From: a bacterium
GTDB lineage: Bacteria > AUK180
Assembly: GCA_023133295.1 (NCBI GenBank)
Contig: JAGLWT010000090.1
Span: 6,402 to 70,401, forward strand
DNA length: 64,000 bases
Reading direction: 5' to 3'
Below the pieces are notes generated by a model. It was not told the origin of the DNA and ran no database searches. It saw only the letters and a list, made by a program, of their open reading frames with translations. Shown here in pieces: positions 9,734 through 39,777 of the stretch (position 1 is the first letter of the stretch; each line of letters opens with the position of its first letter). Position numbers and translations under genes: made by a program.

Positions 9734-10129
9734 ATGGAAACTTTCGAGAAATATGTCATCATCGTTGGTGTAGTAGCTGTTTTTGCAATTGCCTATCTCA
9801 TCCTCTACTGGCTGTTCCTAAAGAAGCAGGAATTCTGGGTGAAGATCGTCGCCATCATCGTATGTTCCCCCATCGTATCGTTTCTTACGAAGTTCATTAC
9901 ATTCCCTTCCCAGAAGACCGGACTGGTGCAGAAAGGCATCCCGTTCCATTATTATACGCCTGCCCAGGAGTCAGTCGGCACATTCATAAAAAGCATAATA
10001 AAATCCGCTGAAGTTAATTCTTCCGGAATGGACTGGGAAAGATTTTTCTGGAATACTGTATTTTATGCCGGAGTATTTTTGATTATCACCATGTTTGTCA
10101 AGAGCAAACAGAAAAAAAAGAAAGACTAG
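9734..10129 (+). CDS. hypothetical membrane protein
   Basis: AAGGAG RBS; 3 hydrophobic segments; promoter-like TTGAAC...TACAAT upstream. Confidence 0.75.
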   Translation: METFEKYVIIVGVVAVFAIAYLILYWLFLKKQEFWVKIVAIIVCSPIVSFLTKFITFPSQKTGLVQKGIPFHYYTPAQESVGTFIKSIIKSAEVNSSGMDWERFFWNTVFYAGVFLIITMFVKSKQKKKKD

Positions 10130-10690
10130 GTATCTGTTCTTTGAATTAAATTCTTTTCCCGTGTCAGCGGACTCCGCTCCGCGACCTTCTCCCTTGGCAT
10201 CTCTGCGGCCTTTTCACTTTTCCTTGCGAAGCCCGCTTCGCTACTTGTTCCTTGTGCCTTGTTCCACTAGAGGAGTAGGGGACGGTGGTCCCATTTGTTG
10301 CAAAATTGCGAAGCGTGTTCAAAAGTTCAAGGTTATGCTTCGCAGAGCACAAGTGACAAGTGCACAAGGCACAAGTGGAGAGTTGAATAAAAGAAAGAAA
10401 TTGCCATCTGATTTCTTCACATCGTACTTCGCACCTCGTACTCAGTCTGCGCAGCAGGCTGTTGGGTCCACTGGTGCACTTACTCTTTTGTTCTGATGTA
10501 AACAATGTCAACCACCGTCCCCATATTTCTACATCGTACGTTAAACGCCATACATGCTGCGCCTGCTCAGCTTCCGCGTTCCTGCAACATACCTTGTTCC
10601 CGGGTCTCGGCGTGCTGGAAGGCTCCGTTCCGCTTCCCATACTTGATTTCATATTAAGTTAAACATATAATAATCCAAAAGGAGGATTCA

Positions 10691-11059
10691 ATGGAATGTC
10701 CGAATTGCGGAAATAAATTATTTGGTTTCTGGAAATTCTTTTTTATAGATGCTTCGAAAAAGATCAAGTGTAGGAACTGTCTCACGGTGTTAGAGCCGGA
10801 CGAAATGTCACAACGTATCCTTGATTTTTTCTCGACAAAATTCTGGTTTTTAGTTTTCATAATAGTGATATTTGTTAATGATCATATTCTCAAGTCAGAT
10901 ATTCCCTGGGACCTGATCGGGGTTTTAGCCATTTATTTCACTACAAATCTTATCCTATCGATTTACTTATGGAGGAACGGAGGGTACAATATCTCTCTTG
11001 TCATAACAGATAAAAGAAAGTTCAAGACCGCGAAAAACTTGCTAGATAAGATGGAATAG
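10691..11059 (+). CDS. hypothetical Zn-ribbon (CxxC...CxxC) membrane protein
   Basis: MECPNCG...KCRNC then two TM segments; GGAGG RBS. Confidence 0.75.
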   Translation: MECPNCGNKLFGFWKFFFIDASKKIKCRNCLTVLEPDEMSQRILDFFSTKFWFLVFIIVIFVNDHILKSDIPWDLIGVLAIYFTTNLILSIYLWRNGGYNISLVITDKRKFKTAKNLLDKME

Positions 11060-11220
11060 GGATTATGGGGACGGTGGTCCCGAAACTGATAGTTACGGGA
11101 TAAATTGCACAAGTAGAAAAATTATTTGAGTAAAGAGATATTCCCCTATTGGATGGTACGGTTGCACGATTTGTCAATTGACAAATCATGCAACTGAGAT
11201 TTGGAGTGATAATAAAGCGC

Positions 11221-11788
11221 TTGGTCTTTTGAATTGAACTTGGAACAGTATTTTGTTATTCTGAATTCATCCAGAGAACAGGTCAAGCCCTGTCCCTACA
11301 GGATAATTTGTCTCATAATTATTCATTTCGCTATCCACCTAATGTTCCATTGGAGTTCTTGATACTAAAAATAAACTCAAAATGCAACATAATATACCTC
11401 CGTCCCCAATTTTGTTGACAAAATATCGGGCGAAGGGGACAGGAAATACGAGAGGGAGGGGATTAAGAAATTCCAGAAGGGGATTTTTCCGGAATTCAGA
11501 ACAGCGATATTCAATCTTCAACTTTTTAATGATCTTTCCCATTTTCACCTTGCAACTCATACTTCCAACCTCGTACTCAGTCTGCGTGGCAGACTGTTGT
11601 TCCACTGGGACACTGGGCCCTGGGTCCACTGGTGCACTTACTATTTTGTTCTGATGTCAACAATGTCAACCACCGTCCCCATGTTGGATTTCCCAACGGG
11701 GCAAGGGATAGGGAGGGGAGGAGAGGAAAAAGAGAGAGAAAGTGGAGAGAAAAATACGGAGAGGGATACAGAGCAGAAATTGAGAGAT
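11221..11788 (+). repeat. long composite direct repeat, copy 1 (copy 2 at 14378-15039)
   Basis: 11221-11565 matches 14378-14733 and 11652-11788 matches 14904-15039, near-identical. Confidence 0.9.
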
Positions 11789-11830
11789 TATAGAAATGAG
11801 TGGTTGCAAAAGTTGCAAAATGTAAACCGA

Positions 11831-12544
11831 TTACTCGGGTTCTTGTGACATTTCCTCAAGGCAGGTTTCGCAGAACTCAATATCACGGTTTTCCGCTTCC
11901 GAACAAGTAAGTCTCAATCTCATACCGCACCGAAGGCATTTTGCCGGCCTGCATCCGGGGCATCTCTTTGGTGGATCCCATCCTTTTTCTTCAAATAATA
12001 ACTGTGATTCAACTGTCCAGATAAATTCCTTTTCGCAATCACTGCATGTAAGTGTGATCTCCTCCATGATGTCCTCAGATACAGGCTCTTTAAGATCAAG
12101 CTCGGCCAGAACCTCTTTTTGCCATGCTAAAAAATGGGAACTTTTTCTGGAGAAGATGACCTTCAACGGCTTTGAGAACATGCGGGTCTTCTGAAATATG
12201 AAATTGGGGTTCCACATAACATTAGGGATCTCTCCACATTTGGGATGGTAACAGTCTATTGAGCCACCCGGACACTCTTTCCTGAAGCATATCTCTCCTT
12301 TGAACTCCCCTTGCATGTCAAAAACGAACACCAGCCAGTGATTTGAAATATTTGTCAGCCGTCTCGCCGCTCTTGAGATGATATGAAAATCTGCAAAATC
12401 GCTTATGACAACGGCAAGTTCCAGGCCATAAGGATCTTCAGAATCCATAGCTATTTCTCTAACGATAGCGATTTCTTCAAGTCCCCCTGCATGACTTGTT
12501 TCCTCAACGAATTGTTCAGCCATTTTCTTGAGTTTCTGTTTCAT
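11831..12544 (-). CDS. protein with C-terminal probable zinc-ribbon (zf-trcl-like) domain
   Basis: LTCSDCEKEFIWTVESQLLFEEKGWDPPKRCPGCR; GGAAGG RBS before ATG 12544. Confidence 0.75.
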   Translation of the reverse strand: MKQKLKKMAEQFVEETSHAGGLEEIAIVREIAMDSEDPYGLELAVVISDFADFHIISRAARRLTNISNHWLVFVFDMQGEFKGEICFRKECPGGSIDCYHPKCGEIPNVMWNPNFIFQKTRMFSKPLKVIFSRKSSHFLAWQKEVLAELDLKEPVSEDIMEEITLTCSDCEKEFIWTVESQLLFEEKGWDPPKRCPGCRPAKCLRCGMRLRLTCSEAENRDIEFCETCLEEMSQEPE

Positions 12545-12619
12545 TGCACCTTCCTCAAGTAAATAATATAGTATTTGAGTCAAAATTACAAACATGTTTA
12601 ATTCCATTAATAAGAGATA

Positions 12620-12700
12620 ATGCCACTTAAATGCACAAATAATGTAAAGAAATGCCACTAATATACGGGAATATTATTGAAATATGCCACTAATACGCAC
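12620..12700. promoter_or_regulatory. three ATGCCACT direct repeats at exact 32-bp spacing
   Basis: copies at 12620, 12652, 12684 upstream of the - strand zinc-ribbon gene. Confidence 0.5.
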
Positions 12701-12862
12701 GAAAGTGTTGATTTATCTTCATGGGGTTAATTGAAAGGATAGATACTATCTGACTTTACAAAGTATCTGACTTTACAAAGAAAGATGAGAAGGGGAGAAA
12801 TAATATTAATACTTGTCAGTGAAAATAATACTTGACAATACAAATATTTTCTGTAGGAATTT

Positions 12863-13099
12863 GGGGACGATCGTTGCATTTGTCGCAAGTTGAGATAGTA
12901 ATTCCGATAAATGGATATTTATAGGGCAGAAAGGGGAGAGCAGATCGTATCAATCCGCTAAGAAAACCGGATTTGATTTCAGTTCATTGTGTGGTATAAT
13001 AAATCAAATGAAAAAGGGAGATATTGGGAAATGAAAGATGAAAATGCAGCAAATGCCATTTATCTCGCACCTTCCAAATGGTACTGGACGACCGCCCCC
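12863..13099 (+). mobile_element. GGGGACG..-ended non-autonomous element carrying an extended -10 promoter (second copy 28069-28276)
   Basis: ends ggggacgatcgttgca / gacgaccgcccc; ~130 bp interior nearly identical to 28127-28262 incl. TTGATT..TGGTATAAT. Confidence 0.7.
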
Positions 13100-13134
13100 G
13101 CGAGTACTTACAATTTTAATGGAGGAACTTTAAA

Positions 13135-14241
13135 ATGAATCCATTTATTCCTGAAAGCTTACCTATTGTGGGGATTGATTGGGAGAGTCTTGTAAGAAAG
13201 ATTGGATCTGCCAATGCTGAGATTGCGAGATATGACGGTCTCTTACAAAGCTTACCCAATCCAAATGTTCTGCTATCACCGTTGACTACTAATGAAGCAG
13301 TATTATCTTCAAAGATCGAGGGCACTCAAGCCTCCCTGGAGGAGGTATTTGAAGCTGATGCAGGAATAGGAAAACAGTCTTCGTCTAATGTACAAGATGA
13401 TATCAAAGAAATAATCAATTACAGAAGTGTTCTTTTATCCGCCGAGAAGGAATTGAAATCAAAACCAATAAGTCTTCATCTGATAAAAGGTCTTCATGAA
13501 GTATTATTAGATAGTGTAAGGGGAAAAGATAAAACTCCCGGTAAATTTCGAACCGATCAGAACTGGATCGGAAAACTCGGAACATCAATGGCAGGAGCAA
13601 GATATATTCCACCTAACCCAATGATTCTACAGGAACACTTAGAGAATTGGGTGAAATTTATTCAAATGAAAAATTACCCGGATGCTATTGTCCAATTGGC
13701 AATAATACATGCCCAATTTGAAATCATTCATCCATTTAAGGATGGTAATGGCAGGATCGGCAGATTACTGATTCCCTTGTTTTTGTACCACAAAAAATGT
13801 TTGATCAGACCCATGTTCTATCTCAGTGAATATCTTGAGAGCCACAGAGAGGAGTATTACGACAGATTGCTCGCAATTACAGAAGAAGGTGATTGGTTTG
13901 GATGGATAGAATATTTTTTAAATGCGATAATCGTTCAAGCCAAAAAAAATATTGGCAAAGCAAAAAAGATACAAAACTTGTACGAGCATTTGAAGAGCAG
14001 TTTTATTAATTCCACACATTCGCAATACGCCATTCCTGCACTGGATGCGTTTTTCCATTCTCCGATTTTAAGCAGTACTGCGTTTGCTGCTTCGTCAGGA
14101 ATAAAAACAAGAGCAACATCAAATCATATTCTCGAAAAATTATCATCACAAAAACTACTATATTTAATTAGGGAAGCAAAAGGGAGTAAACCAGCAGTAT
14201 ACGCTCTATCAGAATTGATAATTATTGCTGATGAGAAGTAA
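13135..14241 (+). CDS. Fic family protein (DUF4172-like N-terminus)
   Basis: EAVLSSKIEGT; catalytic HPFKDGNGRIGR. Confidence 0.92.
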   Translation: MNPFIPESLPIVGIDWESLVRKIGSANAEIARYDGLLQSLPNPNVLLSPLTTNEAVLSSKIEGTQASLEEVFEADAGIGKQSSSNVQDDIKEIINYRSVLLSAEKELKSKPISLHLIKGLHEVLLDSVRGKDKTPGKFRTDQNWIGKLGTSMAGARYIPPNPMILQEHLENWVKFIQMKNYPDAIVQLAIIHAQFEIIHPFKDGNGRIGRLLIPLFLYHKKCLIRPMFYLSEYLESHREEYYDRLLAITEEGDWFGWIEYFLNAIIVQAKKNIGKAKKIQNLYEHLKSSFINSTHSQYAIPALDAFFHSPILSSTAFAASSGIKTRATSNHILEKLSSQKLLYLIREAKGSKPAVYALSELIIIADEK

Positions 14242-14377
14242 GAATTTGTGGAAAGTAGAATTCACGCAACTCGGGTTGCGTAAAGTGGATCGAGTATGGC
14301 TTTACACAAAAAGCTTTGCGGCAAGAAGAGTTTACACAAATACATGAGTAACGGGTAACGGGATAATATAAGGTACC

Positions 14378-15039
14378 TGGTCTTTATTTTTTATTTGAAT
14401 TGAACTTGGAACAGTATTTTGTTACTCTGAATTCATCCAGAGGACAGGTCAAGCCCTATCTCTACAGGATAATTTGTCTCATAATTATTCATTTCTCTAT
14501 CCACTTAATGTTACGAACATACCCATTGGAGTTCTTGATACTAAAAATAAACTCAAAATGCAACATAATATACCTCCGTCCCCAATTTGGTTGACAAAAT
14601 ATCAGGCGAAGGGGACGGGAAATACGAGAGGGAGGGGATTAAGAAATTCCAGAAGGGGATTTTTCCGGAATTCAAAACAGCGATATTTAACTTTTTAACC
14701 GCTTTCCCATTTTCACACTGAAACTCATACTTCTGTTTCGCTCGTGCCAACAAGAAGCAAATGCATTGTTCACCATTCACTATTTCTCGTCATTCCCAGG
14801 CGCATGACCTTGGGAACCCCGATTACATCGGGGAGCAGGGAATCTATCTTTCTCCACATTTACTTTTCATTATCCATTGGTTGAAGCCTCCTCACCTAAT
14901 TAATGATGTCAACAATGTCAACCACCGTCCCCATGTTGGATTTTCCAACGGGGCAAGGGATAGGGAGGGGAGGAGAGGAAAAAGAGAGAGAAAGTGGAGA
15001 GAAAAATACGGATAGGGATACAGAGCAGAAATTGAGAGA
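14378..15039 (+). repeat. long composite direct repeat, copy 2
   Basis: matches 11221-11788 with a different central module. Confidence 0.9.
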
Positions 15040-15204
15040 TCGGAGCGAAAATCGGGAAATCGGGGACGGTCCAGACACAAGACACTAGATAGAAATGAAG
15101 AATGTTTGCGGTTGAACCGTTGAACGGTTGATCTAGCATCTTGAAAATGTTGATCACTCAGGTTATAATATATCTAAGTCTATCTATATAGAAGGAGGGA
15201 TGAT

Positions 15205-15906
15205 ATGCTAATAATAAAAGGACTCATTGGCGGATTGTTTCAGGTCGTTATGTTCGGTGCTTTACTTCTCATCCCGGCGGGATTAGTGCCTGGCGGAACC
15301 TGGGTATGGAAAAAGGCGATCTACTTTCTTATCGGTTACGGGATCCTGATAGAAGCCCTCATTGTCTGGCTCTGCATCGTTGCACCGGGCGGAATGGAAG
15401 CAAGGTTTAAAAAAGCGCCTAAGGACGAGAGGAGGCCCAGGGAAGACAAGCTTTTAAAACTGCTGGTCATATTATTTATATTTGCTTACTTCATGATCAT
15501 ACCTCTGGATGTCTTTCAATTTCAGATATTCCCTATGCCCGGATCTATCTGGAGTATTATCGGGATCGCATTAGCGGTATTCGGAATACTTTTCAATGGC
15601 GGAGCGCTCTATAGCAATGCCTTTATCACCTCATCGATACAGGATCAGACGGATGAAGGGCAGAAGGTCGCGGATACGGGAGTATACGTTATTGTACGGC
15701 ACCCTTACTATGCATCGCTGTTTTCGCTTTTGATAGGGATATCCTTATGGCTGGAGAGCTGGATGGGGGTGATCGCACTGCTCCCTCTTCTCATCGTACT
15801 GATAATCAGGATCGGGGTAGAGGAAAGAACTCTGAAAAAGACCCTCCCCGGCTATGCTGAGTATACGAAAAAAGTAAAATACAGGTTGATGCCGTTTATC
15901 TGGTAG
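15205..15906 (+). CDS. isoprenylcysteine carboxylmethyltransferase-family membrane protein
   Basis: DTGVYVIVRHPYY, RIGVEERTL, GYAEYTKKVKYRLMPFIW. Confidence 0.88.
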   Translation: MLIIKGLIGGLFQVVMFGALLLIPAGLVPGGTWVWKKAIYFLIGYGILIEALIVWLCIVAPGGMEARFKKAPKDERRPREDKLLKLLVILFIFAYFMIIPLDVFQFQIFPMPGSIWSIIGIALAVFGILFNGGALYSNAFITSSIQDQTDEGQKVADTGVYVIVRHPYYASLFSLLIGISLWLESWMGVIALLPLLIVLIIRIGVEERTLKKTLPGYAEYTKKVKYRLMPFIW

Positions 15907-16202
15907 CGAAGTGATGCTTCGCAGTGTGAAGTGTGAAGTCTGAAGTGCCAAGTGGGATTATCCAATTGACAATGGACAATTGACAGTTGACAATTACTCT
16001 TAATACCATCTCCAATTATTCATTGTATCTGTCATCCTGAGCTTTTCGGCGAAGGATCCATCTGGTATTTACTCCTTGCATTTTCCCCACTTGTGCTCTT
16101 GTCACTTGTGCACTTGTGCTCTGCGAAGCGTGTCCCTTGTCCCTTCTTTTTGGCTTCTCGCTTCGCTTATGGTATAATTTCACAAATGAGGGCTGTTTAG
16201 AA

Positions 16203-17561
16203 ATGGAGAAAAAAGTAAAAAGTAAAAACCGAGTACCTTTTATTTTGATTAATAAAAAACATGATAAGAAGATAAATCGGGTGATATGGTGGATAGTTGG
16301 AGTGGTGGCTTCGTTGCTTGCAGTAATTGTCGTTGTAGGAGAGATCTCTGACCGGATAGGGATATCTTCACTTCGATCACATATTGAAGAGTCAAACAAA
16401 ATGCTTGAGGCTTTTGAAGCAAGCATGGACGGCAACAGTCAGGGACAATATGAAAATGAGTTGAATGAGAATGCCTGGGATTATTATTCTGATGGCTCAC
16501 TCGAACATTTCAGCTCCAGCAGAAGTATCATCATCTATGAATATGAGAATCCAGAACTTTCTGATGATGTGATCGCAGAGTTGGGAAAATATACAGGACT
16601 TGAGAAAATTATTCTCAATGGTGCGAGATGTAGATATTGTGAAATACCTTGGGATTACAGAGACCCTGATTCAAAGCTTCCGAATTTATCCCAGTTAAAG
16701 AGTGTTGCAAAATATTTAAATGTTCTTGCCAAGTATTACTTGGAAAATGGAGAAAACCCTAAGGCATTGGAAGTTTTACATGCCGGATTCATTATGTCAT
16801 CGGATCTCTCAAAAGGCATTCCCGCTCTCGTAGCAGAAATGATTAAAACCGCATGTGATACTATCCTGCTTAATGCTGTTGAATATGGTTTAAGCAAAGA
16901 CTATTTTAATAGTCAGGAACTTGCGGAAATTTCTGCTATGCTGATCATTGAACCAGAAAAAGACATTGCGGATATGGTTTACTGGGATATTCTTCAAATG
17001 CTATATCTTTTTGCAGGTAATACCAATATTGGATCTGACGCTGATCCCGTTGACACTTCAAATACTTCTCCAGGCTATTTCACAAAGCGTGTCATACATT
17101 TGAAATCGTGGTTTTCACTCTATTTAGGTATGGCGAAAACATATGATCTTATGGCTGAACTGAATGAGAAGGTGAAGGGGCGTAAGTGGAACGAAATCTA
17201 TAAAGAGACTGATGAATACCAAAGCAAAATCGAGAAAACATCTCTTTGGGGATATCTTATGCCTGTTTTTGATTTTGTATATTTTAAATACCTTGCCACT
17301 GAGCAGAGGATGAAGCTTGTAAAAGTCGCTGCGTTATTGGCGAAGTATGAAAAAGACAATGATGAATATCCAGATAGTCTTGAAGAATTGGGATTGGATG
17401 AGAATCTGCTTAAAGATAAACTATCAGGTTCGAAATTGATATATAAGATCAAGGAGGATAACTCTGTTATGATTGGGGTTGATATACACAAGATAAATAT
17501 CCCACAGAGAAATCCATATAAAAAATATGTTGATTACTTTGAGCCAATAGTCTTAGATTAA
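16203..17561 (+). CDS. hypothetical membrane-anchored protein
   Basis: one N-terminal TM, helical body, C-terminal YPDSLEEL motif; ATG 16203 follows TGGTATAAT and GAGGG. Confidence 0.75.
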   Translation: MEKKVKSKNRVPFILINKKHDKKINRVIWWIVGVVASLLAVIVVVGEISDRIGISSLRSHIEESNKMLEAFEASMDGNSQGQYENELNENAWDYYSDGSLEHFSSSRSIIIYEYENPELSDDVIAELGKYTGLEKIILNGARCRYCEIPWDYRDPDSKLPNLSQLKSVAKYLNVLAKYYLENGENPKALEVLHAGFIMSSDLSKGIPALVAEMIKTACDTILLNAVEYGLSKDYFNSQELAEISAMLIIEPEKDIADMVYWDILQMLYLFAGNTNIGSDADPVDTSNTSPGYFTKRVIHLKSWFSLYLGMAKTYDLMAELNEKVKGRKWNEIYKETDEYQSKIEKTSLWGYLMPVFDFVYFKYLATEQRMKLVKVAALLAKYEKDNDEYPDSLEELGLDENLLKDKLSGSKLIYKIKEDNSVMIGVDIHKINIPQRNPYKKYVDYFEPIVLD

Positions 17562-17596
17562 ATATGGTACTTGGTCTTTATTATTTATTTGAATTA

Positions 17597-29901: not shown

Positions 29902-29918
29902 ATTATGGAGGAGTGTAG

Positions 29919-31500: not shown

Positions 31501-32100
31501 ATGAGTAATGCTGAATTTTATCATTATATTCATCATGGTTCTGAGGAAAGAAATCTGGAATATAAGTGTTCAATGAATTGGGATTCGGAGGAAATAAAAA
31601 GTAAAATCACAAAAACATGTATAGCGATGAGTAATCTTCCAGATGGCGGGGTCATTGTATTGGGAGTCAAGGAAATTGAAAAAGATGTATTTTATCCAGA
31701 AGGAATGTTAGAACAAGATTACAATTCATTTAATCAAGATAATGTGCAGCATTGGGTAAATAATCATGCAGATCCTTATGTGTTACTCACAGTAAAAAAA
31801 ATAGAGGTAGAAAATCTTAAGTATATTGTTATCCAGATCAAAGAATTTGATTTGTATCCGGTAATATGCAAGAAAGATAGTGTTACAATTAATGAAGGTG
31901 AAATTTACTGTAGACCAAAACGAAAGAATGAATCTGTTAAAATACCAAGTCAAAATGAAATGCGTGAAATACTTGAATTAGGTGTTAAGAATGCTGTAAG
32001 AAAAAACTTGTATCAATGTCATAATCTCATAAAAGAAGTGAATAAGGAATTGGATACACAAGATAATAGTAATTTTGAGAAGGAAATTGAGGATTTATAA
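31501..32100 (+). CDS. AlbA_2 (Schlafen-like) domain protein
   Basis: EERNLEYK, IAMSNLPDGGVIVLGVKE. Confidence 0.82.
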   Translation: MSNAEFYHYIHHGSEERNLEYKCSMNWDSEEIKSKITKTCIAMSNLPDGGVIVLGVKEIEKDVFYPEGMLEQDYNSFNQDNVQHWVNNHADPYVLLTVKKIEVENLKYIVIQIKEFDLYPVICKKDSVTINEGEIYCRPKRKNESVKIPSQNEMREILELGVKNAVRKNLYQCHNLIKEVNKELDTQDNSNFEKEIEDL

Positions 32101-32101
32101 A

Positions 32102-32815: not shown

Positions 32816-32820
32816 ACATT

Positions 32821-33166
32821 ATACACGATATATATTACTCAAATTTTGTTGTTGGAATAGAAAAAATAAACAAGAAGGGAAAGAAGAGAATAAAGGCATT
32901 CAGTGTATGGGATTCAGATTTACCTAGAAAAAATATTTTATTTATTAAAGGAATTGATCCTGAGTATTTCAAATACATTGCTGAACACAATATGGCCAAT
33001 TTAGATAATGAAAAAAGAAATTATGCAGCAACAAATATGCGCATTTCTTATATGCACGGCCTTGAAACACTCTTTTCCTTATTGTTTGCATCTTTACAGT
33101 CTCCTGATTGTATTCACGGATGGTTGATGAAATACAATTTAGGAGATTTGAGAGAATTAATCCTCA
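32821..33166 (+). pseudogene. truncated hypothetical gene cut by a GGGACGGT element end
   Basis: open frame FSVWDSDL..GIDPEYF..HGLETLFSLLFA runs into repeat DNA (gggaattcagggaattcagggacggtcg) at ~33167. Confidence 0.5.
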
Positions 33167-33425
33167 CGGGAATTCAGGGAATTCAGGGACGGTCGTTGCA
33201 TTTGTTGCAAAAGACACGCTTCGCAGTTGCCCAGTGGACCCAGTATCCTAAAGGAAAATCGTTCTGATAAATAGTTCCGAATCACATCTTCAATACAAAC
33301 ATATCACAATAGTTATAATGAAAGCCACAGAATTAACCTTACTATCAAAATAGATATTCGAATATAAGCATACATAGTGTTCTGGCATTATACTTGATAA
33401 TAAGAGTAATAGATAGGAGGTGAAT

Positions 33426-33902
33426 ATGGCTGTAAAAGTATTCATTAGTTATTCTTCAAAGGATGGAAGGCGAGTGAAACCGATAAAAGATGTATTGGAA
33501 AAGTATCCTGGACTGAAGATATTTTTTGCTGATGATTCATTTTTTCCGGGCGATAATATTCCTGAACGAATAAAAGCAGAGATTGAGAAATGTGATTATC
33601 TCTTCCTATTTCACAGTAAAAATTCATTGAAATCGCAATGGGTTCAAAACGAGATTGGAATAGCGTATGGGAAAAGCAAGACGGTAGTACCAATTCTACT
33701 GGACAAAGCTAAACCAGAAGGAGTAATAAAAACTGTAACAAATTACTTGGATCTAACAGATAAGAAGAAATTTGATATTGCAGTGAATGAACTACTTGAA
33801 GTTGTTAGAAAGAAAGAGAATGAGAAGAATTTGTCCACTGGCCTTTTAATAATTAGTGTGATAATAATAATTGGACTGATTATCTGGGGGAACTCCAAAT
33901 AG
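33426..33902 (+). CDS. TIR domain protein with C-terminal TM helix
   Basis: KVFISYSSKD, SQWVQNEIG; hydrophobic C-terminus; AGGAGG RBS. Confidence 0.88.
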   Translation: MAVKVFISYSSKDGRRVKPIKDVLEKYPGLKIFFADDSFFPGDNIPERIKAEIEKCDYLFLFHSKNSLKSQWVQNEIGIAYGKSKTVVPILLDKAKPEGVIKTVTNYLDLTDKKKFDIAVNELLEVVRKKENEKNLSTGLLIISVIIIIGLIIWGNSK

Positions 33903-34185
33903 TATCCCTGAGCTATGAGAATCATAGGATCGAAAAAATCTTCGCTTCTAAGAAATATCGCAAATATTCATCAATCTGTAATTCCTTTCGATTCCATATG
34001 CGAGCATATCCGAAGTTGTCTCCTGGCATGCGAAATGCACATAGAATCTTTGCTCTTTTTGCGTTGAATTTTTTGATTTAAAAGTGTTTATTGAGTGTTA
34101 AATTTGATTATTTGGATCATTTTCTCATAGAACATAATTATATGGTTGAATGTGAGAAGTATTTTTTCACGAAAGGAGTTGTATT

Positions 34186-34338
34186 ATGCCGAAAACAGGT
34201 GAAAAACCAGGGATAGGTAGGTATAGATGTACCAAATGCGGACAAACAGTAGTCCTGGATGATAGGAGTGATACATTACCTCCTTGTCCAAAATGTGCGA
34301 ACACAAACTTTCGAAGATTAATTATGAGGAAAAGATGA
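34186..34338 (+). CDS. small zinc-ribbon (YjzC-like) protein, absent from the ORF track
   Basis: AAAGGAG RBS; MPKTGEKPGIGRYRCTKCG..TLPPCPKC; stop overlaps next ATG (ATGA). Confidence 0.8.
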   Translation: MPKTGEKPGIGRYRCTKCGQTVVLDDRSDTLPPCPKCANTNFRRLIMRKR

Positions 34339-34754
34339 GTCATAAAACTATCACAATTAATTTTGACGGTTACTGGAGAGATGTGAACAAAAACAGCATT
34401 CCAAATAAATCAGGAATTTATTGTGTCTATGAGTGTACCCATAATAGAGATAAAGAAAATATAACTATTCATAAATTAATCTACATAGGCGAAGCTGGGA
34501 AAGTTAGGGACAGGATTTTAGGTCATGAGAAAAGAGAGAAATGGTTACAATATGTTGGCAAAGGAAATGTATTATGCTTCAGTTTTGGGGATATTGACAA
34601 TGAAGCAGATAGGGAGCGAGCTGAGGCTGCTGTGATAAATAAGGAAAAACCGCCTGTAAATGAAGAATATAAGAATAATTTTCCCTTTGATTCGACTACT
34701 ATAAAATTAACAGGGGAGATTACGTTACTGCATAATAATTATACAGTAGAATAG
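34335..34754 (+). CDS. GIY-YIG nuclease family protein
   Basis: SGIYCVY...LIYIGEA..VRDRI..H, AEAA, PPVN. Confidence 0.85.
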   Translation: MSHKTITINFDGYWRDVNKNSIPNKSGIYCVYECTHNRDKENITIHKLIYIGEAGKVRDRILGHEKREKWLQYVGKGNVLCFSFGDIDNEADRERAEAAVINKEKPPVNEEYKNNFPFDSTTIKLTGEITLLHNNYTVE

Positions 34755-34810
34755 AGCGATGGAATAGAGTTAAATAATAAAATGCATACAAGAATGATGG
34801 GGAGATGATA

Positions 34811-35167
34811 ATGTCTGAATGGGTATTTGATAAAAATGGACAACCTATTATAATTCATGATGATGATTGCTTTAGAGATAGTAACGGGCAAGTAATTGCG
34901 TGGATCTCTCGCAACAATGTTTACGACTTGAATGGCATGCATGTTGGCTGGTTTGAGGATGGAATTCTTCTAGACTCTCAAAACCAAGTTTTAGGATTCT
35001 TATATAATGCGAGCGGGCATCTTCCTTCACGACCTGGGCTTACCGGAACGCCTGGTACACCTGGTTTTGCCGGTAGACCTGGTCGCCCAGGATTTGGAGG
35101 TACACCTGGCCGTCCAGGTCGCGGTGGTTGGTCAAATCAAAATCTATCAACATACTTCAAGGATTGA
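34811..35167 (+). CDS. small protein resembling the 4-fold beta-flower family, with Pro/Gly-rich tail
   Basis: repeated D.NG..I.W units then RPG/TPG repeats. Confidence 0.6.
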   Translation: MSEWVFDKNGQPIIIHDDDCFRDSNGQVIAWISRNNVYDLNGMHVGWFEDGILLDSQNQVLGFLYNASGHLPSRPGLTGTPGTPGFAGRPGRPGFGGTPGRPGRGGWSNQNLSTYFKD

Positions 35168-35435
35168 TTAGGGGATTGTGTGGCCGGTCGTTGCGAAAAT
35201 AGGGGACGGTCGTTGCATTTGTTGCAAAAGACACACTTCGCAGTGTCCTAGGAGCCCAGGAGTAAGACAACTTGTCACTGGATATGGGATCATATACGAT
35301 AATGACAGAGTATAACGGGATTCCCGACTTGGTCTAGAAAACTTAACTTTCCCAAAAATGTAAAAGTAGGATTACACGAAATAGATGATTTTCAGTCTTT
35401 GTAGAAGGGGACTTTTCGCTTTGGGATTTAGTACA

Positions 35436-36227
35436 TCAGTACTTCTTCCGAGTAAAGAAGTTTCGTAGATGATGAAACAAAGTTTTGAAGAAAGAAAGGA
35501 ACTTTATTCCAAACGACAAAATAGGATAAAATATATTCTTATGTAGGAACCTGGCTAATACCTGTTTAAATTTATTGATCTTGATGTTCAGTCTAATACA
35601 GGTAATTGCAGGAAGGTTACCAATCCTATCCATTTTATGTAAATCCGGTATTTTATTATCGCAACATATCGTTTTGAGTCTCGACATTAACTGCATTAGA
35701 TCTGACTTAATAACAGTAGAAAATACATAGTGATCGGAGTAGAAGTGTGCATTAAATTTATAAGCACTTAACATACAAAATAGAGGTTTCTTGTGAAAAT
35801 TGGAAATCCCTGCTATGTTACTATCTATGGTGAATTCCATATCTTCAACTGCTTTACCTATGTATAGTGGAAAACCAGTTTTTACATGAGGTGAATATGT
35901 TAAATATAATCCCTTAGATGATTTATGAGGATTGAGTATTATTTTCTTAATAACTACAGGAAAATCAGAGTTAGTAAACATTGCAAGTTTGAGCGTGAAG
36001 TACATTTGACCATATTGAGCATCGTGATAAAATGAAGCCTCAGTTATATTAGCTGCAATTTTAATATTATACTGGTGCGTGCTCAAATATATTGAGAATA
36101 GAGAAACAAGTATTGCACTAAACGCAAGAAGCCTATCAAGAAAAGAGAATACCCAATAACTTGGAAAAAGTGAAAATACTATTATTGCAATTATTATTAG
36201 GAAAATTATATAGTAAAGCTTCTTCAT
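35436..36227 (-). CDS. hypothetical membrane-anchored protein
   Basis: 263 aa ORF with N-terminal TM segments; TTGACA..TATAAT directly upstream. Confidence 0.65.
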   Translation of the reverse strand: MKKLYYIIFLIIIAIIVFSLFPSYWVFSFLDRLLAFSAILVSLFSIYLSTHQYNIKIAANITEASFYHDAQYGQMYFTLKLAMFTNSDFPVVIKKIILNPHKSSKGLYLTYSPHVKTGFPLYIGKAVEDMEFTIDSNIAGISNFHKKPLFCMLSAYKFNAHFYSDHYVFSTVIKSDLMQLMSRLKTICCDNKIPDLHKMDRIGNLPAITCIRLNIKINKFKQVLARFLHKNIFYPILSFGIKFLSFFKTLFHHLRNFFTRKKY

Positions 36228-36445
36228 GAGGAATTATACATTGTCTATTTAATCTTGTCAAGCAGCAGCAGTTGTTGAAGGCCCGCCGGGGACGGTCGTT
36301 GTATTTGTTGCAAGATTGATGGGATATTGTATAATAAAGGGGAAAGGGTTGAAATTTGAGAAAAAATAAAAAAGTGCTATAGTGAATTATGGATGGTAAA
36401 AATGGAGTTTAATCTATTAATTCAAAACTAATAAGCTTTATCAGA

Positions 36446-36853
36446 ATGGTAGGTTTAGTTCTTCTAATCTTAAGTATTTACCTTGGAATATATTCTTTTC
36501 AATTTCTTTTCAAAACTACTGGTTTCCCTATTCTTGATGAAATATGGTATCCAAAAGATATGATAATAATTTTCTGTCTTTATTTTCTTACATTGATTAT
36601 TGGTAGCATTGGATTAATTCTTCTAAAAAAGTGGGGAAGAATAACATTAATTATAACAAGTATATTTAGTTTTGTTGTTTTATTTTTTATGGAAATTGAC
36701 AATATTTCATATTTCGAGTTTGATAAGTCTGATGTAAAGGTAATAATATATTTATTAATTTTTCTATTTCTAATAATATTCCTACTTAATAAAGATGTCA
36801 TACGAACAATAGATTATTGGAAAAAAACAAATGCTGACTTGAAGAAAAAATAA
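36446..36853 (+). CDS. hypothetical membrane protein
   Basis: 4 TM segments, very AT-rich. Confidence 0.6.
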   Translation: MVGLVLLILSIYLGIYSFQFLFKTTGFPILDEIWYPKDMIIIFCLYFLTLIIGSIGLILLKKWGRITLIITSIFSFVVLFFMEIDNISYFEFDKSDVKVIIYLLIFLFLIIFLLNKDVIRTIDYWKKTNADLKKK

Positions 36854-37128
36854 ATAAGGGGATGCTGGCATGAAAGAAATTTTGAGTTTTGAGTGTTTAC
36901 TTTTGAGTTGTAAAAATACATAAATAAACAAGAAAAAGGAAAGCGTAAATACTGGATTCCTGATCAGGTCAGGAATGACGCTTTTTCACTTTGCGGTCTC
37001 GGAAATTCGGGGCCCGTGGTTGCGAAAGTTGCAAAAGCTACGCTACGCAGTGGCCCAGTGGACCCAGTGTCCCTGAGTCCCAGAGCGATATAAAATTGCA
37101 TGTCTTCTAATAAATGGTATAATTATTT

Positions 37129-37785
37129 GTGAAGAAAGAAAACGACGATCTTAAGATTCCGAGAAAACCATCAGTAGAAAATCTCTCACCCCATGATCTT
37201 GATACACTTGGAAGAGAAGAGAATATGATTACCTTTATTGAAAGACACTTAGAGTTAGGGAAAAGCAAAGAAACCATCAGAAGTAAATATCTTGAAATCC
37301 ACAAAACAGATAAGGAATGTATTGATTTTGATGAAGCATACGAGCTTGTAATAGATACACAAGATATATTCAAAGCAGATTTCCGGACGCATATCTGGGG
37401 ATTCTTCGGGATCTTTATTTCTGCAATAATCGCCGGGATGATCATCGGGACAACATGGTTTTTTCTTCAACCTTTGGGTGTTCTTGCTATATTCCTAACA
37501 GGATTTATCTCCACCAAGATTAATAGAATGATCGTTTGGGATCACGAAAGTACATTGCTCATGATCTTCTCAGTGTTTTCTGTCTTGCTGGCGGTATTCC
37601 TAAGTGGATACTTTTATTTTGTATTATCCACTCTTAATTCTACCGAAATAACATTTACTCCTTCATTTCCCAGATTCATCGTTCAAACTTTTCCAATGTT
37701 CATTAGTAATATTTGGGGAGTCATGAATATCTCTCATATTTTTGCAGGATTAATTTCTACGGCTTGGGTGAAGCTTTTTTTCTAA
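37129..37785 (+). CDS. hypothetical membrane protein
   Basis: soluble N-terminus then 3-4 TM; TTGCAT..TGGTATAAT just upstream. Confidence 0.7.
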   Translation: MKKENDDLKIPRKPSVENLSPHDLDTLGREENMITFIERHLELGKSKETIRSKYLEIHKTDKECIDFDEAYELVIDTQDIFKADFRTHIWGFFGIFISAIIAGMIIGTTWFFLQPLGVLAIFLTGFISTKINRMIVWDHESTLLMIFSVFSVLLAVFLSGYFYFVLSTLNSTEITFTPSFPRFIVQTFPMFISNIWGVMNISHIFAGLISTAWVKLFF

Positions 37786-37799
37786 TAGTGTACCTGGTC

Positions 37800-37992
37800 T
37801 TTATTTTTTATTTGAATTGAACTTGCGAACTTCTGGGGGGATGGATCCTTCGCGGAGAAGCTCAGGATGACAGAATGCAATGAACAATTAAGAAATGAAC
37901 AATGAATAGTGGGGAAAACACAAGAAGCAAATACCAGATGGATCCTTCGCGGCGCAGCTCAGGATGACAAATAGCGAGAAAGATGGATTATC
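37800..37992 (+). repeat. ~190 bp direct repeat (copy at 39590-39777) containing two CGTC-type palindromes
   Basis: GGATCCTTCGCGG..GCTCAGGATGAC twice; near-identical copies flank the ATPase gene. Confidence 0.9.
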
Positions 37993-38308
37993 GGGTCCCC
38001 GATGTAATCGGGGTTTCCAAGGTCACAAGCCTGATAACGATAATGACAGAGGACGGGTCAAGCCCTATCCCTACGAATATTTCTGATTATTTCTTTGTCT
38101 TGTGCGCTTGTCGCTTGTGCACTTGTGCTCTGCGAAGCATAACCTTGAACTTTTGAACGATCTTGAATGAAATGAAAGATATATGTAGGTCTGGGGCAAA
38201 CCGAAAACAAATAGAGCAGTCCCTTGAAAAATCTAATTTATTATGTTACGCTAATATGCGTAACGCAGAGATGCGTAACACTGAAATGCGGAATCTGAAG
38301 GAGGAAAT

Positions 38309-39442
38309 ATGGATAATCCCTTTTCATACGGAGGTGTCGTAACCGGTTCAAGTTTTACCAATAGGAAAAAAGAACTTCATGAGATCACAAATGATGTAAT
38401 GGCGGGGCAAAACATCTTTATCTACTCCCCGAGGCGTTATGGGAAAACCTCTCTTGTCAAGAATGTATTAAATAATATTCCGGATAAGAAAATGGTAAAG
38501 ATATATGTCGACTTTCTTCAGGTGTATTCCAGAAAAAGGTTTGTTGAAATATATTCCAGGGAAATCGGGAAGAAAATGAAGACTTCATTTGAAGGGGTGA
38601 TAAACTTTTTCAAAAAACATATTTCGAACGTGATTCCCACAGTAACCCTAAACGATGAAGACAAGCCCGAATTCAAACTGAAATACGAGGAAAGCGGTAA
38701 GATAAACGATCAACTATTATCCGATATGTTAGAATTACCCAGTAAGTTGATCAAAAGCCAGAAAAAAAGGGCGGTGATCGTTTTTGATGAGTTTCAGGAA
38801 ATATCAAAACTCAACGGCGAAGCGTTTGAAAATCAACTGCGATCAGTGATTCAACACCATGAAAATATAAGTTATATCTTCATGGGGAGCAAAATGCATA
38901 TCCTTCTAAATATGTTCAATAGTAAGAACCGGGCTCTCTACAATATCGGTAAAACACTGAACCTGAAAAAGATTGAGCGCCCGGAGATGATAAGCTACAT
39001 TGAAAAACAGTTCACGAAAGCAAAAAAGATAATCTCGGCAGGAGTGCCGGAAGAGATTTGCGTTCTTGCCAAAGATCATCCATATTATATTCAGATGCTC
39101 TGTCATCAGATCTGGTATGAATCTCTAGCCATAGATGAAATTGGGAAACAGACAGTGGATAAAGCGATTGAAGTTCTTCTTGCAAATCAGAATGAGTTTT
39201 TTTCAAAGATGTGGGGAGCTCTGTCGATGCATCAGAAAAAATTTCTTGTTGCGATATCCATGTCAGGCGGAACAGGGGTGTTTTCCGCTGAATACAGAAA
39301 TAAAAATCAACTGTCAGCACCTTCAACTGTAGAGCGAAGCGCTTCAAAGCTTGTCGAGGATGGCGTACTGGAGAAAAACAATGGGAACTACGAATATTCA
39401 GATCCCTTTTTTCAAATATGGGTTAAATTGAATAATAAGTAA
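38309..39442 (+). CDS. AAA+ (archaeal-type ATPase_2) protein with C-terminal wHTH
   Basis: NPFSYG..FTNRKKE; Walker A SPRRYGKTS; Walker B IVFDEFQ; DPFFQIW. Confidence 0.88.
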   Translation: MDNPFSYGGVVTGSSFTNRKKELHEITNDVMAGQNIFIYSPRRYGKTSLVKNVLNNIPDKKMVKIYVDFLQVYSRKRFVEIYSREIGKKMKTSFEGVINFFKKHISNVIPTVTLNDEDKPEFKLKYEESGKINDQLLSDMLELPSKLIKSQKKRAVIVFDEFQEISKLNGEAFENQLRSVIQHHENISYIFMGSKMHILLNMFNSKNRALYNIGKTLNLKKIERPEMISYIEKQFTKAKKIISAGVPEEICVLAKDHPYYIQMLCHQIWYESLAIDEIGKQTVDKAIEVLLANQNEFFSKMWGALSMHQKKFLVAISMSGGTGVFSAEYRNKNQLSAPSTVERSASKLVEDGVLEKNNGNYEYSDPFFQIWVKLNNK

Positions 39443-39589
39443 TTTCGCATGAGTGCGTAACGCAGTGTTGCGTAATATCCGCAGTTGACTGTTGGCCGAG
39501 AGTCCGTTTGCTGTGAGATTTGAAAACATATATTCAAAAGGAATATCGGGGGTGGTGGTTGCACTTGTTGCAAGTTACGATAAGATCAT

Positions 39590-39777
39590 TTATTTTATTT
39601 GAATTTAACTTGCGAACTTCCTGGGATGGATCCTTCGCGGAGAAGCTCAGGATGACGGAATGCAATGAACAATTAAGAAATGAACAATGAATAGTGGGGA
39701 AAACACAAGAAGCAAATACCAGATGGATCCTTCGCGGCGCAGCTCAGGATGACAAATAGCGAGAAAGATGGATTATC
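39590..39777 (+). repeat. second copy of the 37800-37992 repeat
   Basis: direct sequence match. Confidence 0.9.

What the first reader, a model, noticed from the sequence alone, without database searches (positions are those of the whole stretch)
10129..39620. Integron-like cassette array without attC: a same-orientation GGTACCTGGTCTTTATTTTTTATTTGAATTGAACTT site follows many unrelated genes
Seen: copies of this ~35 bp site, all in + orientation, start at 10129 (overlapping a stop), 11220, 14372, 17566 (4 nt after a stop), 28755, 37790 (4 nt after a stop) and ~39585. Each follows a different orphan or defence-like + strand gene. At 17566 and 28755 it runs straight into the same promoter module for the next gene, giving a gene-site-promoter-gene unit. 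Established: integrons build such arrays with attC sites and IntI, and neither is seen here. Inference: this is a recombination or junction site of an undescribed gene-cassette acquisition system whose enzyme is encoded elsewhere, possibly an HUH/RAYT-type transposase.
Basis: partly seen in the sequence, partly recalled or inferred. Interest (0 to 1): 0.85.

Follow-up and report, generated by a model that had tools for sequence, protein, structure and literature searches.

The report
Transposase-end spacers in a defence island
The repeated site is real, but its first 22 bases are a lone copy of the end-repeat of a small transposon, fused to a promoter-bearing spacer, and such spacers punctuate a fast-changing anti-phage gene island rather than forming a proven integron-like capture system.

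Summary
The site (S) exists. Two copies are near-identical (14372, 37789), one is good (17566) and four are partial (28755, 11220, 39585, 10129). All are on the + strand, and S is rare elsewhere: 6 of 8 full copies in the genome lie in this window.

S is composite. Bases 1-22 (GGTACCTGGTCTTTATTTTTTA) match, at 21 of 22, the terminal inverted repeat of a ~1 kb element encoding a RAYT-like HUH/Y1 protein. Complete elements occur in G002:C14, G006:C13 and, as a variant, G000:C145. The rest of S is a short-tandem-repeat tract.

A second repeat (D1) flanks other RAYT-like genes and behaves the same way. D1 or S is followed by sigma70-type promoter modules that fill the spacers between unrelated defence genes (Fic, Schlafen/AlbA_2, type ISP, TIR, AbiJ, caspase). 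D1 or S occupies 13 of 21 spacers in this island and 8 of 18 in a second island, against 23 of 793 elsewhere.

A congeneric genome shares the flanks and three anchor blocks but almost no cargo.

There is no IntI (only XerC/XerD), no attC-like hairpin and no terminator fold. Strain breakpoints mostly fall in small repeats or at D1 edges, not at one S nucleotide.

The parts
9167..39850 (+). Hypervariable, low-GC defence island between the TRAP transporter gene (7268-9166) and the PilZ gene (39851-40213, minus strand). Nearly all genes are on the + strand.
   Evidence: GC is 0.32-0.42 inside the island and 0.44-0.46 in the flanks. Pfam and PADLOC hits are Fic, PEMT, Schlafen/AlbA_2 x3, type ISP RM, TIR x2, AbiJ and caspase. 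In G003 only three blocks are shared.
14372..14416 (+). S, reference copy. It consists of the 22-nt RAYT-flank repeat followed by a TTTGAATTGAACTTG tract.
37789..37836 (+). S copy, 35 of 36 identical to the reference. It begins 4 nt after the stop codon of ORF 37129-37785.
17566..17601 (+). S copy, 34 of 36 identical. It begins 4 nt after the stop codon of ORF 16116-17561 and runs into the D2 promoter module.
   Evidence: Paralogues of the upstream protein align to its last residue, so the stop codon is natural.
28755..28790 (+). Degenerate S copy, 26 of 36 identical. It runs into the D2 module.
10129..10153 (+). Short S variant: the tip GGTATCTGTTCTTT followed by GAATTAAATTC. It overlaps the stop codon of ORF 9734-10129.
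   Evidence: The ortholog in G003 has a perfect GGTACCTGGTCTTT.
11220..11243 (+). Short S variant with a truncated tip and a deleted T-run.
39582..39624 (+). S' variant: only the T-rich and TTGAAT/TTGCGAAC tract, without the GGTACC tip, directly after a D1. It is orthologous to the right-boundary copy in G003.
26945..26983 (+). D1 repeat (GGGGACGGTNGTTGCATTTGTTGCAAAA), one of 12 in the island. The other starts are 10269, 11658(-), 11800, 12856, 28059, 28252(-), 33175, 35195, 36279, 37000 and 39538. A truncated copy lies near 15045.
   Evidence: The D1 core flanks RAYT-like genes on C79 and C94 as inverted repeats.
17599..17710 (+). D2 module: a promoter (TTTGCA/TTGCAT, 17-18 nt spacer, TACAAT), a leader and an AGGAG ribosome-binding site. 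Further copies lie at 19380-19491 and 28780-28891, upstream of unrelated genes.
12907..13056 (+). D5 module downstream of a D1, carrying TTGATT-N16-(TG)TATAAT and pointing at Fic. A second copy at 28114-28263 points at ORF 28306.
25171..25259 (+). 3' end of the type ISP gene. It recurs as gene-end remnants in the spacers at 27012-27080 and 29812-29880.

Best explanation
S is not a recombination site of its own kind. It is a two-part spacer module.

Its first 22 nt are a solo copy of the terminal inverted repeat that bounds a ~1 kb IS-like element encoding a ~310-aa RAYT-like HUH/Y1 protein with a C-terminal helix-turn-helix. The remaining ~23 nt belong to a (T/C)TGNGAAC short-tandem-repeat family that occurs at module junctions across this genome.

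S and a second, commoner RAYT-flank repeat (D1) form the upstream ends of portable spacer modules. Many of these modules carry an outward sigma70-type promoter and a ribosome-binding site. The modules fill the whole gap from one gene's stop codon to the next gene's start. The island therefore reads as co-oriented units of [end-repeat + promoter] followed by gene(s).

Inferred, not shown:
- The modules derive from the gene-proximal ends of RAYT-like elements.
- They spread by that machinery and/or by local recombination.
- They persist because they give newly acquired defence genes a host promoter.
- As 40-350-nt direct repeats, they supply the homology at which genes are swapped, inserted and lost between strains.

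On this reading S itself is a low-copy, genus-restricted relic in this scaffold, not an attC analogue.
For: S and the element ends:
- S bases 1-22 are identical at 21 of 22 positions to both ends of the G002:C14 element, and at 13 of 14 to the tip of the G000:C145 element. G006:C13 has the same tip on both ends plus a third solo copy.

The enclosed proteins:
- They hit Pfam Y1_Tnp and have NF047646 (RAYT) as their best NCBIfam hit.
- They keep the HxH and Tyr motifs.
- The structural model's best PDB match is 4ER8, the REP-associated tyrosine transposase, at E 1.5e-6 and target TM 0.70.

D1:
- Its core flanks RAYT-like genes on C79 and C94 in inverted orientation, and it forms ~225-nt inverted doublets.

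Promoters in the modules:
- D2, D5 and the C95/C30 type carry promoter-like hexamers.

Enrichment:
- D1 or S lies in 13 of 21 island spacers and in 8 of 18 spacers of a second defence island on C95, against 23 of 793 spacers elsewhere.

Module boundaries coincide with gene boundaries:
- S starts 0-4 nt after stop codons at three places.
- Gene 16116-17561 ends naturally there.
- In G002 the Schlafen gene homologue loses homology at the start codon and has no S, D2 or D1 upstream.

Turnover with the scaffold retained:
- The G003 island shares three anchor blocks in the same order.
- The C95 island shares only repeated modules with G003, where they recur at least 5 times co-oriented on C9.

No integron machinery or structure:
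- No IntI.
- No hairpin or terminator fold in S or in the element ends. Folding z-scores range from -0.56 to +1.14.
Against: - No transcription data exist, so promoter activity of the modules is inferred from hexamers only. Only 8 of 53 D1 copies have a TTGAHA-N16-18-TANNNT match within 140 nt (controls: 23 of 2000).
- A mechanism that makes solo ends is not shown.
- Non-palindromic 22-30-bp terminal repeats are not what solved Y1 or RAYT enzymes are known to recognise. The link between protein and repeat is therefore by position only.
- The tight abutment of the S tip to stop codons, and the unrelated flanks on both sides of a 41-nt identical core (14373-14412 against 37790-37830), are also what a site-specific junction would give.
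- At two of three variable segments in the island the right breakpoint sits at the left edge of a D1.
- All genomes are metagenome bins. Adjacency across repeats longer than the assembler's word size is not independently verified. The unique pieces do have even depth in the probable source run (29.9-38.4).
Confidence: 0.55

Rival explanations
1. S and/or D1 are the sites at which an HUH/Y1 (RAYT-like) enzyme, encoded elsewhere, captures and excises gene cassettes. On this reading the system is an integron analogue based on single-stranded DNA.
For: - Arrays are co-oriented in two islands of G000 and in G003 and G002:C7.
- The repeat is the end of a RAYT-like element.
- The tip abuts stop codons.
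- A 41-nt identical core has unrelated flanks on both sides.
- Some breakpoints sit at D1 edges.
- The orientation of D1 follows GC skew in 42 of 53 copies, as strand-specific single-stranded-DNA transposition would predict.
- Small tandem duplications of the GGTACC tip lie next to two complete elements.
Against: - Most breakpoints between G000 and G003 are not at S.
- Anchor blocks stay collinear, so there is no cassette shuffling.
- Gene-end remnants and a mid-gene breakpoint point to ordinary recombination.
- The sites have no hairpin.
- G003 has S copies but no C145-type gene.
- D1 orientation tracks gene direction equally well (40 of 53), so the skew argument is confounded.
Confidence: 0.15
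2. S and D1 are kept mainly as cis-regulatory sites. They would be operators or insulators bound by one regulator, for instance the helix-turn-helix domain of the RAYT-like proteins. That regulator would co-control defence-island genes.
For: - D1 has two direct GTTGNNA half-sites that co-vary between subfamilies: GCA/GCA, GGCA/GGCA and GACA/GACA.
- D1 lies upstream of promoter-like modules.
- The RAYT-like proteins carry a C-terminal helix-turn-helix that matches the DeoR-type regulator 7BHY at E 0.0035.
- The repeats are strongly enriched in two defence islands.
Against: - The distance from D1 or S to the next start codon varies from about 80 to 520 nt.
- Some copies face no gene, for example 39538/39582, which lie before a convergent gene.
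- The generic GGGACGGT box occurs in both orientations genome-wide (61 against 64).
- No expression data exist.
Confidence: 0.15
3. S is a transcription terminator or 3'-UTR element of the upstream gene.
For: S sits right after stop codons at three places and has a T-rich run.
Against: - No stem precedes the T-run. RNA folds of five copies are no more stable than shuffles (z from -0.56 to +0.89).
- The terminator scan did not flag any S copy.
- The upstream sequences are unrelated.
Confidence: 0.04
4. The array is an artefact of assembling several strains of a metagenome through shared repeats.
For: The window comes from a metagenome bin. Logan contigs of the probable source run break at the repeats.
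Against: - The unique pieces across 9.6-28.1 kb have even depth (29.9-38.4).
- Single contigs bridge gene-S-D2 (16193-17660) and the D1 at 26945 (21379-28095).
- An independently binned congener shows the same architecture and the same anchor order.
Confidence: 0.03

Closest known systems
REP / REPIN sequences and their RAYT (TnpA-REP) genes
   Same: A Y1 HUH gene sits between two inverted copies of a short repeat. The same repeat also occurs as singlets and as short inverted doublets in intergenic DNA (G000:C2 34783/34863, C65 42485/42610). The protein's best fold match is 4ER8. I saw passages of PMC5581495 and the abstract of PMC8266576 for this background.
   Different: - The repeat is not palindromic and has no hairpin.
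- Copy number is about ten per genome, not hundreds.
- The protein is ~310 aa with an added C-terminal helix-turn-helix, whereas the 4ER8 chain has 165 residues.
- Several divergent paralogues exist per genome.
- NF047646 scores are 42-65 bits, below the cut-off of 80.
Integron cassette arrays (IntI, attI, attC)
   Same: Unrelated genes, many of them for defence, lie in one orientation and are separated by a recurrent short site. Content differs between close relatives.
   Different: - There is no IntI.
- The site has no imperfect-palindrome structure.
- The site lies at the promoter-proximal side of the unit, and units bring their own promoters.
- Anchor genes stay collinear between genomes.
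Reused or mobile promoters (abstract of PMC3575422 seen); MITEs with outward promoters such as Correia elements (recalled, not checked)
   Same: Near-identical promoter regions stand before non-homologous genes. D2 is 93% identical between 19380-19491 and 28780-28891, and D5 is 89% identical.
   Different: Here the modules begin with the end-repeat of a RAYT-like element, fill whole spacers, and are concentrated in defence islands.
IS200/IS605 family (TnpA Y1)
   Same: The catalytic fold is the same: IS608, ISDra2 and IS200 TnpA are ranks 2-20 of the fold search. HUH and Tyr motifs are present.
   Different: By recalled family knowledge, IS200/IS605 elements lack terminal inverted repeats and use subterminal hairpins. 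These elements have 22-30-bp terminal inverted repeats and no predicted hairpins.
IS91/ISCR rolling-circle gene capture and Xer-dependent dif modules (both recalled, not checked here)
   Same: Both build arrays of captured genes separated by a recurring end or site, without an integron integrase. XerC and XerD are present in this genome.
   Different: No Rep-type (two-Tyr) transposase or dif-like 11-6-11 palindrome was looked for or seen in S. This is not tested beyond inspecting the S sequence.

Membership tests
Integron | Integron integrase IntI (a tyrosine recombinase with the IntI-specific insertion) | tested here: not met
   PF00589 gives 2 genes in the 96.9%-complete genome. They score as XerD (330 bits, cut-off 329.6) and XerC (324 bits, cut-off 335). 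TIGR02249 (IntI) gives 153 and 125 bits against a cut-off of 265.
Integron | attC: an imperfect inverted repeat that folds as a single-strand hairpin at the 3' end of each cassette | tested here: not met
   S copies fold no better than shuffles as RNA or DNA. No inverted repeat is seen in S.
REP/RAYT system | A Y1 HUH protein with the HUH motif and catalytic Tyr, and the RAYT fold | tested here: met
   H60 and Y119 are nearly invariant and H62 is invariant in 10 sequences. PF01797 scores are over the cut-off. 4ER8 is the best fold match at E 1.5e-6. NF047646 is the best NCBIfam hit but falls below its cut-off.
REP/RAYT system | The gene is flanked by inverted copies of the dispersed repeat | tested here: met
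   G000:C145, G002:C14, G002:C168 and G006:C13 for the GGTACC repeat. G000:C79 and C94 for the D1 core.
REP/RAYT system | The repeat is a palindrome (hairpin) | tested here: not met
   DNA folds of four element ends and two S copies give z from +0.34 to +1.14.
REP/RAYT system | The repeat is highly over-represented in extragenic DNA | tested here: inconclusive
   The D1 core GGGACGGT occurs 212 times against about 47 expected. The GGTACCNNGTCTTT repeat occurs only 13 times in G000.
IS200/IS605 | No terminal inverted repeats; subterminal hairpins at both ends (feature recalled) | tested here: not met
   22-30-bp terminal inverted repeats are present. No hairpins are predicted.
MITE | A short non-coding element bounded by two inverted terminal repeats | tested here: not met
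   S copies are solo. No inverted partner was found in the window at up to 2 mismatches, except a chance-level overlap at 10121. The feature is met for related doublets on C2 and C65 and for D1 doublets such as 28059/28283.
Intrinsic terminator | A GC-rich stem-loop followed by a U-run | tested here: not met
Sigma-54 promoter (considered for D1) | GG-N10-GC at -24/-12 | tested here: inconclusive
   The D1 TTGCA subtype fits GG-N10-GC, and rpoN is present. The family consensus, however, is TTGACA/TTGAMA, and inverted copies flank RAYT-like genes.

The most novel reading that the evidence does not exclude
RAYT-like HUH enzymes and their non-palindromic end-repeats (the GGTACC repeat in S, and D1) run a cassette system for defence islands. 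Each incoming gene would be joined behind an [end-repeat + promoter] adaptor by strand-specific single-stranded-DNA cleavage and joining at the repeat tip. This would give co-oriented, self-expressing arrays and would give domesticated RAYTs a cellular role.
Probability: 0.15. Interest if true: 0.8.

Novelty: new variant of a known kind. Interest (0 to 1): 0.45.

Why it matters
What RAYTs and their repeats do for the cell is an open question. So is how defence islands turn over so fast and still express what they acquire.

In an uncultured cold-seep lineage, the end-repeats of RAYT-like elements, joined to promoter modules, sit in about half of the spacers of two defence islands and in about 3% of spacers elsewhere. 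The scaffold of modules is kept while the genes are replaced.

If these modules act as expression adaptors and recombination handles, that would be a simple integrase-free route to modular defence arsenals. If the HUH enzyme itself makes the junctions, it would be a new cassette system. Both ideas can be tested with long reads and with oligonucleotide cleavage assays.

Tried and rejected
Readings rejected:
- Terminator reading. RNA folds of five S copies were no better than shuffles, and the terminator scan did not flag S.
- Hairpin or REP-like structure. DNA folds of four element ends and two S copies showed none.
- Sigma-54 promoter for D1. I raised this from the GG-N10-GC spacing, and rpoN is present. 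I dropped it because the family consensus is TTGACA-like and inverted copies flank RAYT-like genes.
- Integron. No IntI was found.

Searches that found nothing:
- Rfam at gathering thresholds and the tRNA scan of the window each gave 0 hits.
- No recombinase was found among the island ORFs with Pfam, NCBIfam or PADLOC.
- A metagenome-contig scan for the S 3' half gave 0 hits.
- A phmmer search of the C145 protein against PDB sequences gave 0 hits. A profile search found only the C-terminal helix-turn-helix.
- Protein 37129-37785 has no homologue in the 9 class genomes, so its C-terminus could not be checked.
- A paper search for the 14-nt tip gave 0 papers. A search for defence island, intergenic repeat, cassette and HUH gave nothing relevant.

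Read data:
- The look-up of sequencing runs listed only cold-seep runs kept as Logan contigs.
- I laid four of them on 9300-29299. The contigs break at the repeats. The listed joints have short sides (57 nt or less) inside repeats.
- No excision, circle or empty-site form could be read. This says nothing for or against such forms.

Limits:
- Gene calls in scripts are a crude greedy ORF pick (at least 90 or 120 aa). They include some repeat-derived ORFs.
- Supplementary files of papers were not consulted.

Full report
**Observation**

With up to 3 mismatches, the 36-nt string matches only at 14372 (exact) and 37789 (1 mismatch). None of 100 shuffles gave a match. Gapped alignment to the 14372 copy gives 34 of 36 identical at 17566, 28 at 39575, 26 at 28755, 22 at 11212 and 21 at 10129.

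The weakest copy, 10129, is genuine. Its ortholog in the congeneric genome G003 reads GGTACCTGGTCTTTGAATTAAATTC.

All copies are on the + strand. A profile built from nine copies found 8 hits at E<=0.002 in the 3.1-Mb genome: 6 in the window, one on C20 and one on C99. These 8 are the copies the profile was trained on. A sequence-only covariance model gave 11 hits at E<=0.01 in G000, of which 3 are half-sites. It gave 4 hits in G003, 3 of them full copies and all 3 inside the syntenic island. It gave only half-site-type hits in G002, G006, G005 and G008, and none in G004, G007 and G009.

So S is rare, restricted to the genus and concentrated in this island.

**Setting**

Positions 9167-39850 form a low-GC island (0.32-0.42 against 0.44-0.46 in the flanks). 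It lies between a TRAP transporter gene and a PilZ gene. It carries Fic, a PEMT-like methyltransferase, three Schlafen/AlbA_2 proteins, a type ISP restriction-modification enzyme, two TIR proteins, AbiJ and a caspase-like protease. No tRNA or Rfam family is present.

The nearest named record is an unclassified 'MAG: bacterium' (L001). It is G003, which is about 93% identical to G000 in the flanks. The runs that hold the window are cold-seep metagenomes.

Between the same flanks G003 has 38 kb of different genes. Only three blocks are shared, and they keep the same order: 9678-10196, 15072-15981 and 19360-20788.

**What S is**

A search for the tip GGTACCNNGTCTTT found 13 copies in G000. Two of them, inverted, bound a 996-bp element on C145 that encodes a 312-aa protein hitting Pfam Y1_Tnp. 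Two pairs form 94- and 139-nt inverted doublets.

The S model also hit the ends of homologous elements elsewhere. G002:C14 has ends GGTACCTGGTCTTTACTTTTTAC and a protein 63% identical to the C145 protein. G006:C13 has ends AATAAGGTACCTGGTCTTTAC(T/A)TTTTACGG plus a third solo copy. S bases 1-22 match the G002:C14 end at 21 of 22.

The proteins have NF047646 (REP-associated tyrosine transposase) as their best NCBIfam hit, at 42-65 bits against a cut-off of 80. They keep the HxH and Tyr motifs. A structural model (mean pLDDT 77) has 4ER8, the REP-associated tyrosine transposase, as its best PDB match (E 1.5e-6, target TM 0.70). IS608, ISDra2 and IS200 transposases follow. The C-terminal third is a helix-turn-helix.

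The rest of S (TTTGAATTGAACTTGCGAACTTCC) belongs to a (T/C)TGNGAAC short-tandem-repeat family. GAACTTGYGARC occurs 17 times in the genome, typically at the ends of other small repeats.

The copy at 39585, two copies in G003 and the C20 copy lack the GGTACC tip. They share only the T-rich run and the 3' tract.

**A second, commoner repeat**

D1 (GGGGACGGTNGTTGCATTTGTTGCAAAA) has 12 copies in the island, 10 on + and 2 on -. It has 53 copies genome-wide at E<=0.01, and 21 of these lie in two islands on C154 and C95.

Its core flanks the RAYT-like genes on C79 and C94 as inverted repeats and stands upstream of three more. It also forms inverted doublets about 225 nt apart. GGGACGGT occurs 212 times against about 47 expected.

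The D1 subtype is co-oriented with GC skew in 42 of 53 copies and with the local genes in 40 of 53. The generic box is not (61 against 64).

After a co-oriented gene the box lies a median of 34 nt from the stop codon.

Where both repeats occur, the order is stop codon, D1, then S. This is seen at 39538/39582, in G003 at two places, and on C20, C99 and C30.

**Promoter modules**

S at 17566 and 28755 runs into D2, which contains TTTGCA/TTGCAT, a 17-18 nt spacer, TACAAT, a leader and AGGAG. D2 also precedes 19552 and its G003 ortholog, so it serves unrelated genes.

D1 is followed by alternative modules. One type (D5) ends in TTGATT-N16-(TG)TATAAT and points at Fic and at ORF 28306. Another, on C95, C54, C80 and C30, has TTGAAA/TTGATA-N17-TAAAAT. 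A third has TTGCAT-N16-TACAAT. A strict pattern is met by only 8 of 53 D1 copies (controls 23 of 2000), so this is not universal.

The modules fill whole spacers. S starts 0-4 nt after three stop codons. Paralogues of protein 16116-17561 align to its last residue, so that stop codon is natural. In G002 the homologue of gene 17706 is 90% identical from its start codon onward. It has a different upstream region, and no S or D1 hit (profile scan) on its 4.3-kb contig.

D1 or S lies in 13 of 21 spacers of this island and in 8 of 18 on C95, against 23 of 793 spacers elsewhere.

The C95 island is also defence-like (two AAA_21 ATPases, a KAP NTPase, a HARE-HTH/RAMA protein). It shares with G003 only two repeated modules, which recur at least five times co-oriented on G003:C9.

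**Test of the breakpoint prediction**

Between G000 and G003 the block ends fall as follows:
- 55 nt past the short S (10196).
- At the left edge of a D1, for the left end of block 15072-15981 and for the right end of the island.
- In small repeats (15981, 19360).
- Inside a gene (20788).

At two variable slots outside the island, a gene or gene pair followed by D1 and S in G000 is replaced in G003 by an unrelated opposite-strand gene. On C20 the breaks are outside S. On C99 the break falls in the tandem-repeat tract of S.

Gene-end remnants of the type ISP gene lie in two spacers.

The 41-nt identity between 14373-14412 and 37790-37830, with unrelated flanks on both sides, does show that S is a discrete unit. 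There is still no single crossover nucleotide.

**Structure and enzymes**

S and the element ends fold no better than shuffles, as RNA or as DNA. This argues against attC-like, REP-like and terminator readings.

The genome's only tyrosine recombinases are XerD- and XerC-like. G003 keeps S copies but has no C145-type gene; its best hits are 24-28% identical.

Logan contigs of four runs break at the repeats and give no informative joints. Depth of the unique pieces in the probable source run is even (29.9-38.4), and contigs bridge gene-S-D2 and one D1.

**Reading**

I read S as a relic end-repeat of a RAYT-like element fused to a tandem-repeat tract. It is one of several modules (D1, D2, D5) that form co-oriented [end-repeat + promoter]-gene units in defence islands.

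It is shown that:
- The repeat is homologous to the ends of elements encoding RAYT-like proteins.
- The proteins have the Y1 fold and motifs.
- The repeats are enriched in defence-island spacers.
- Module boundaries coincide with gene boundaries.
- Gene content turns over between congeners.
- Integron features are absent.

It is inferred that:
- The modules act as promoters.
- They derive from the gene-proximal ends of the elements.
- They serve as recombination handles.

The cassette-capture reading stays open at about 0.15, a shared-regulator reading at about 0.15, and terminator or artefact readings are low.

**Comparison and novelty**

This is not an integron.

It resembles REP/RAYT systems in gene, fold and flanking inverted repeats. 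It differs in four ways: the repeats are not palindromic, copy number is low, the protein has an added helix-turn-helix, and there are several paralogues. (I saw passages of PMC5581495 and the abstract of PMC8266576.)

It also resembles promoter reuse (abstract of PMC3575422).

I rate it a new variant of a known kind. No paper in the searched library holds the tip sequence. No paper turned up for defence island, intergenic repeat, cassette and HUH. Supplements were not seen.

Noticed in passing
window 1-16300 and 37790-39855, and genome-wide: Intergenic DNA is a mosaic of small repeats with up to about 127 copies. Many are tandem hepta- or octamers (CTTGTGC, TGTCAAT, GTGAAGT, TTGNGAAC), joined to blocks such as GTCATCCTGAGC...GAAGGATCC and GGGACAGGGCTTGACCTGTCC. 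These repeats insert into each other. For example, a 110-nt block splits S from D2 in G003, with TGCGARCT on both sides.
   Followed up: partly
G000:C95:13.9-39.6 kb (L079, L080): This is a second defence-like island: two AAA_21 ATPases, a KAP NTPase and a HARE-HTH/RAMA protein. Its D1 copies are all on the minus strand, co-oriented with the genes. It has no DNA homology to G003 except two repeated modules, which recur at least 5 times on G003:C9:41.5-55.5 kb.
   Followed up: partly
L059 (G002:C14) about 1219-1250; L052 (G002:C168) about 1474-1490: Directly outside the GGTACC tip of two complete elements lie small tandem copies of the tip: GGTACCATTGCA three times, and AGGTACCGGAT before GGTACCGGG. 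These could be traces of repeated cleavage and joining, or of slippage.
   Followed up: no
window 20788 (inside ORF 19552-21018): Homology to the G003 ortholog (86%) stops inside the Schlafen/AlbA_2 gene. The C-terminal HTH part therefore differs between the two genomes, which is a domain swap.
   Followed up: no
window 25171-25259, 27012-27080, 29812-29880: The last ~90 nt of the type ISP gene recur in two spacers here and twice in the G003 island. They look like remnants of replaced genes.
   Followed up: partly
window 16116-16250: The first ~45 codons of ORF 16116-17561 are encoded by a dispersed repeat and match many loci in three genomes. The true start codon is probably further downstream.
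   Followed up: no
G000:C99:5089-6766 (L065): This is a two-gene insert with GC of 0.31 and 0.23. The second gene encodes a CAAX/Rce1-like protease. The insert is followed by D1 and S, and G003 has an unrelated opposite-strand gene in its place.
   Followed up: partly
window 21022-21860: A small Csa3-like HTH protein (28.6 bits, below the cut-off) is followed by a 23S-rRNA-IVS/bAvd-like four-helix protein, just upstream of the type ISP gene.
   Followed up: no
window 43510-62535: A complete-looking cell-division and cell-wall (dcw) gene cluster lies on the + strand. I confirmed MraZ, a PBP transpeptidase and FtsZ.
   Followed up: partly
G002:C7:7301-9255 (L034): Three co-oriented solo GGTACC repeats lie within 2 kb. 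One is 11 nt after the stop codon of a 404-aa gene and one is about 190 nt upstream of that gene's start. The result is a gene flanked by direct copies of the repeat.
   Followed up: partly
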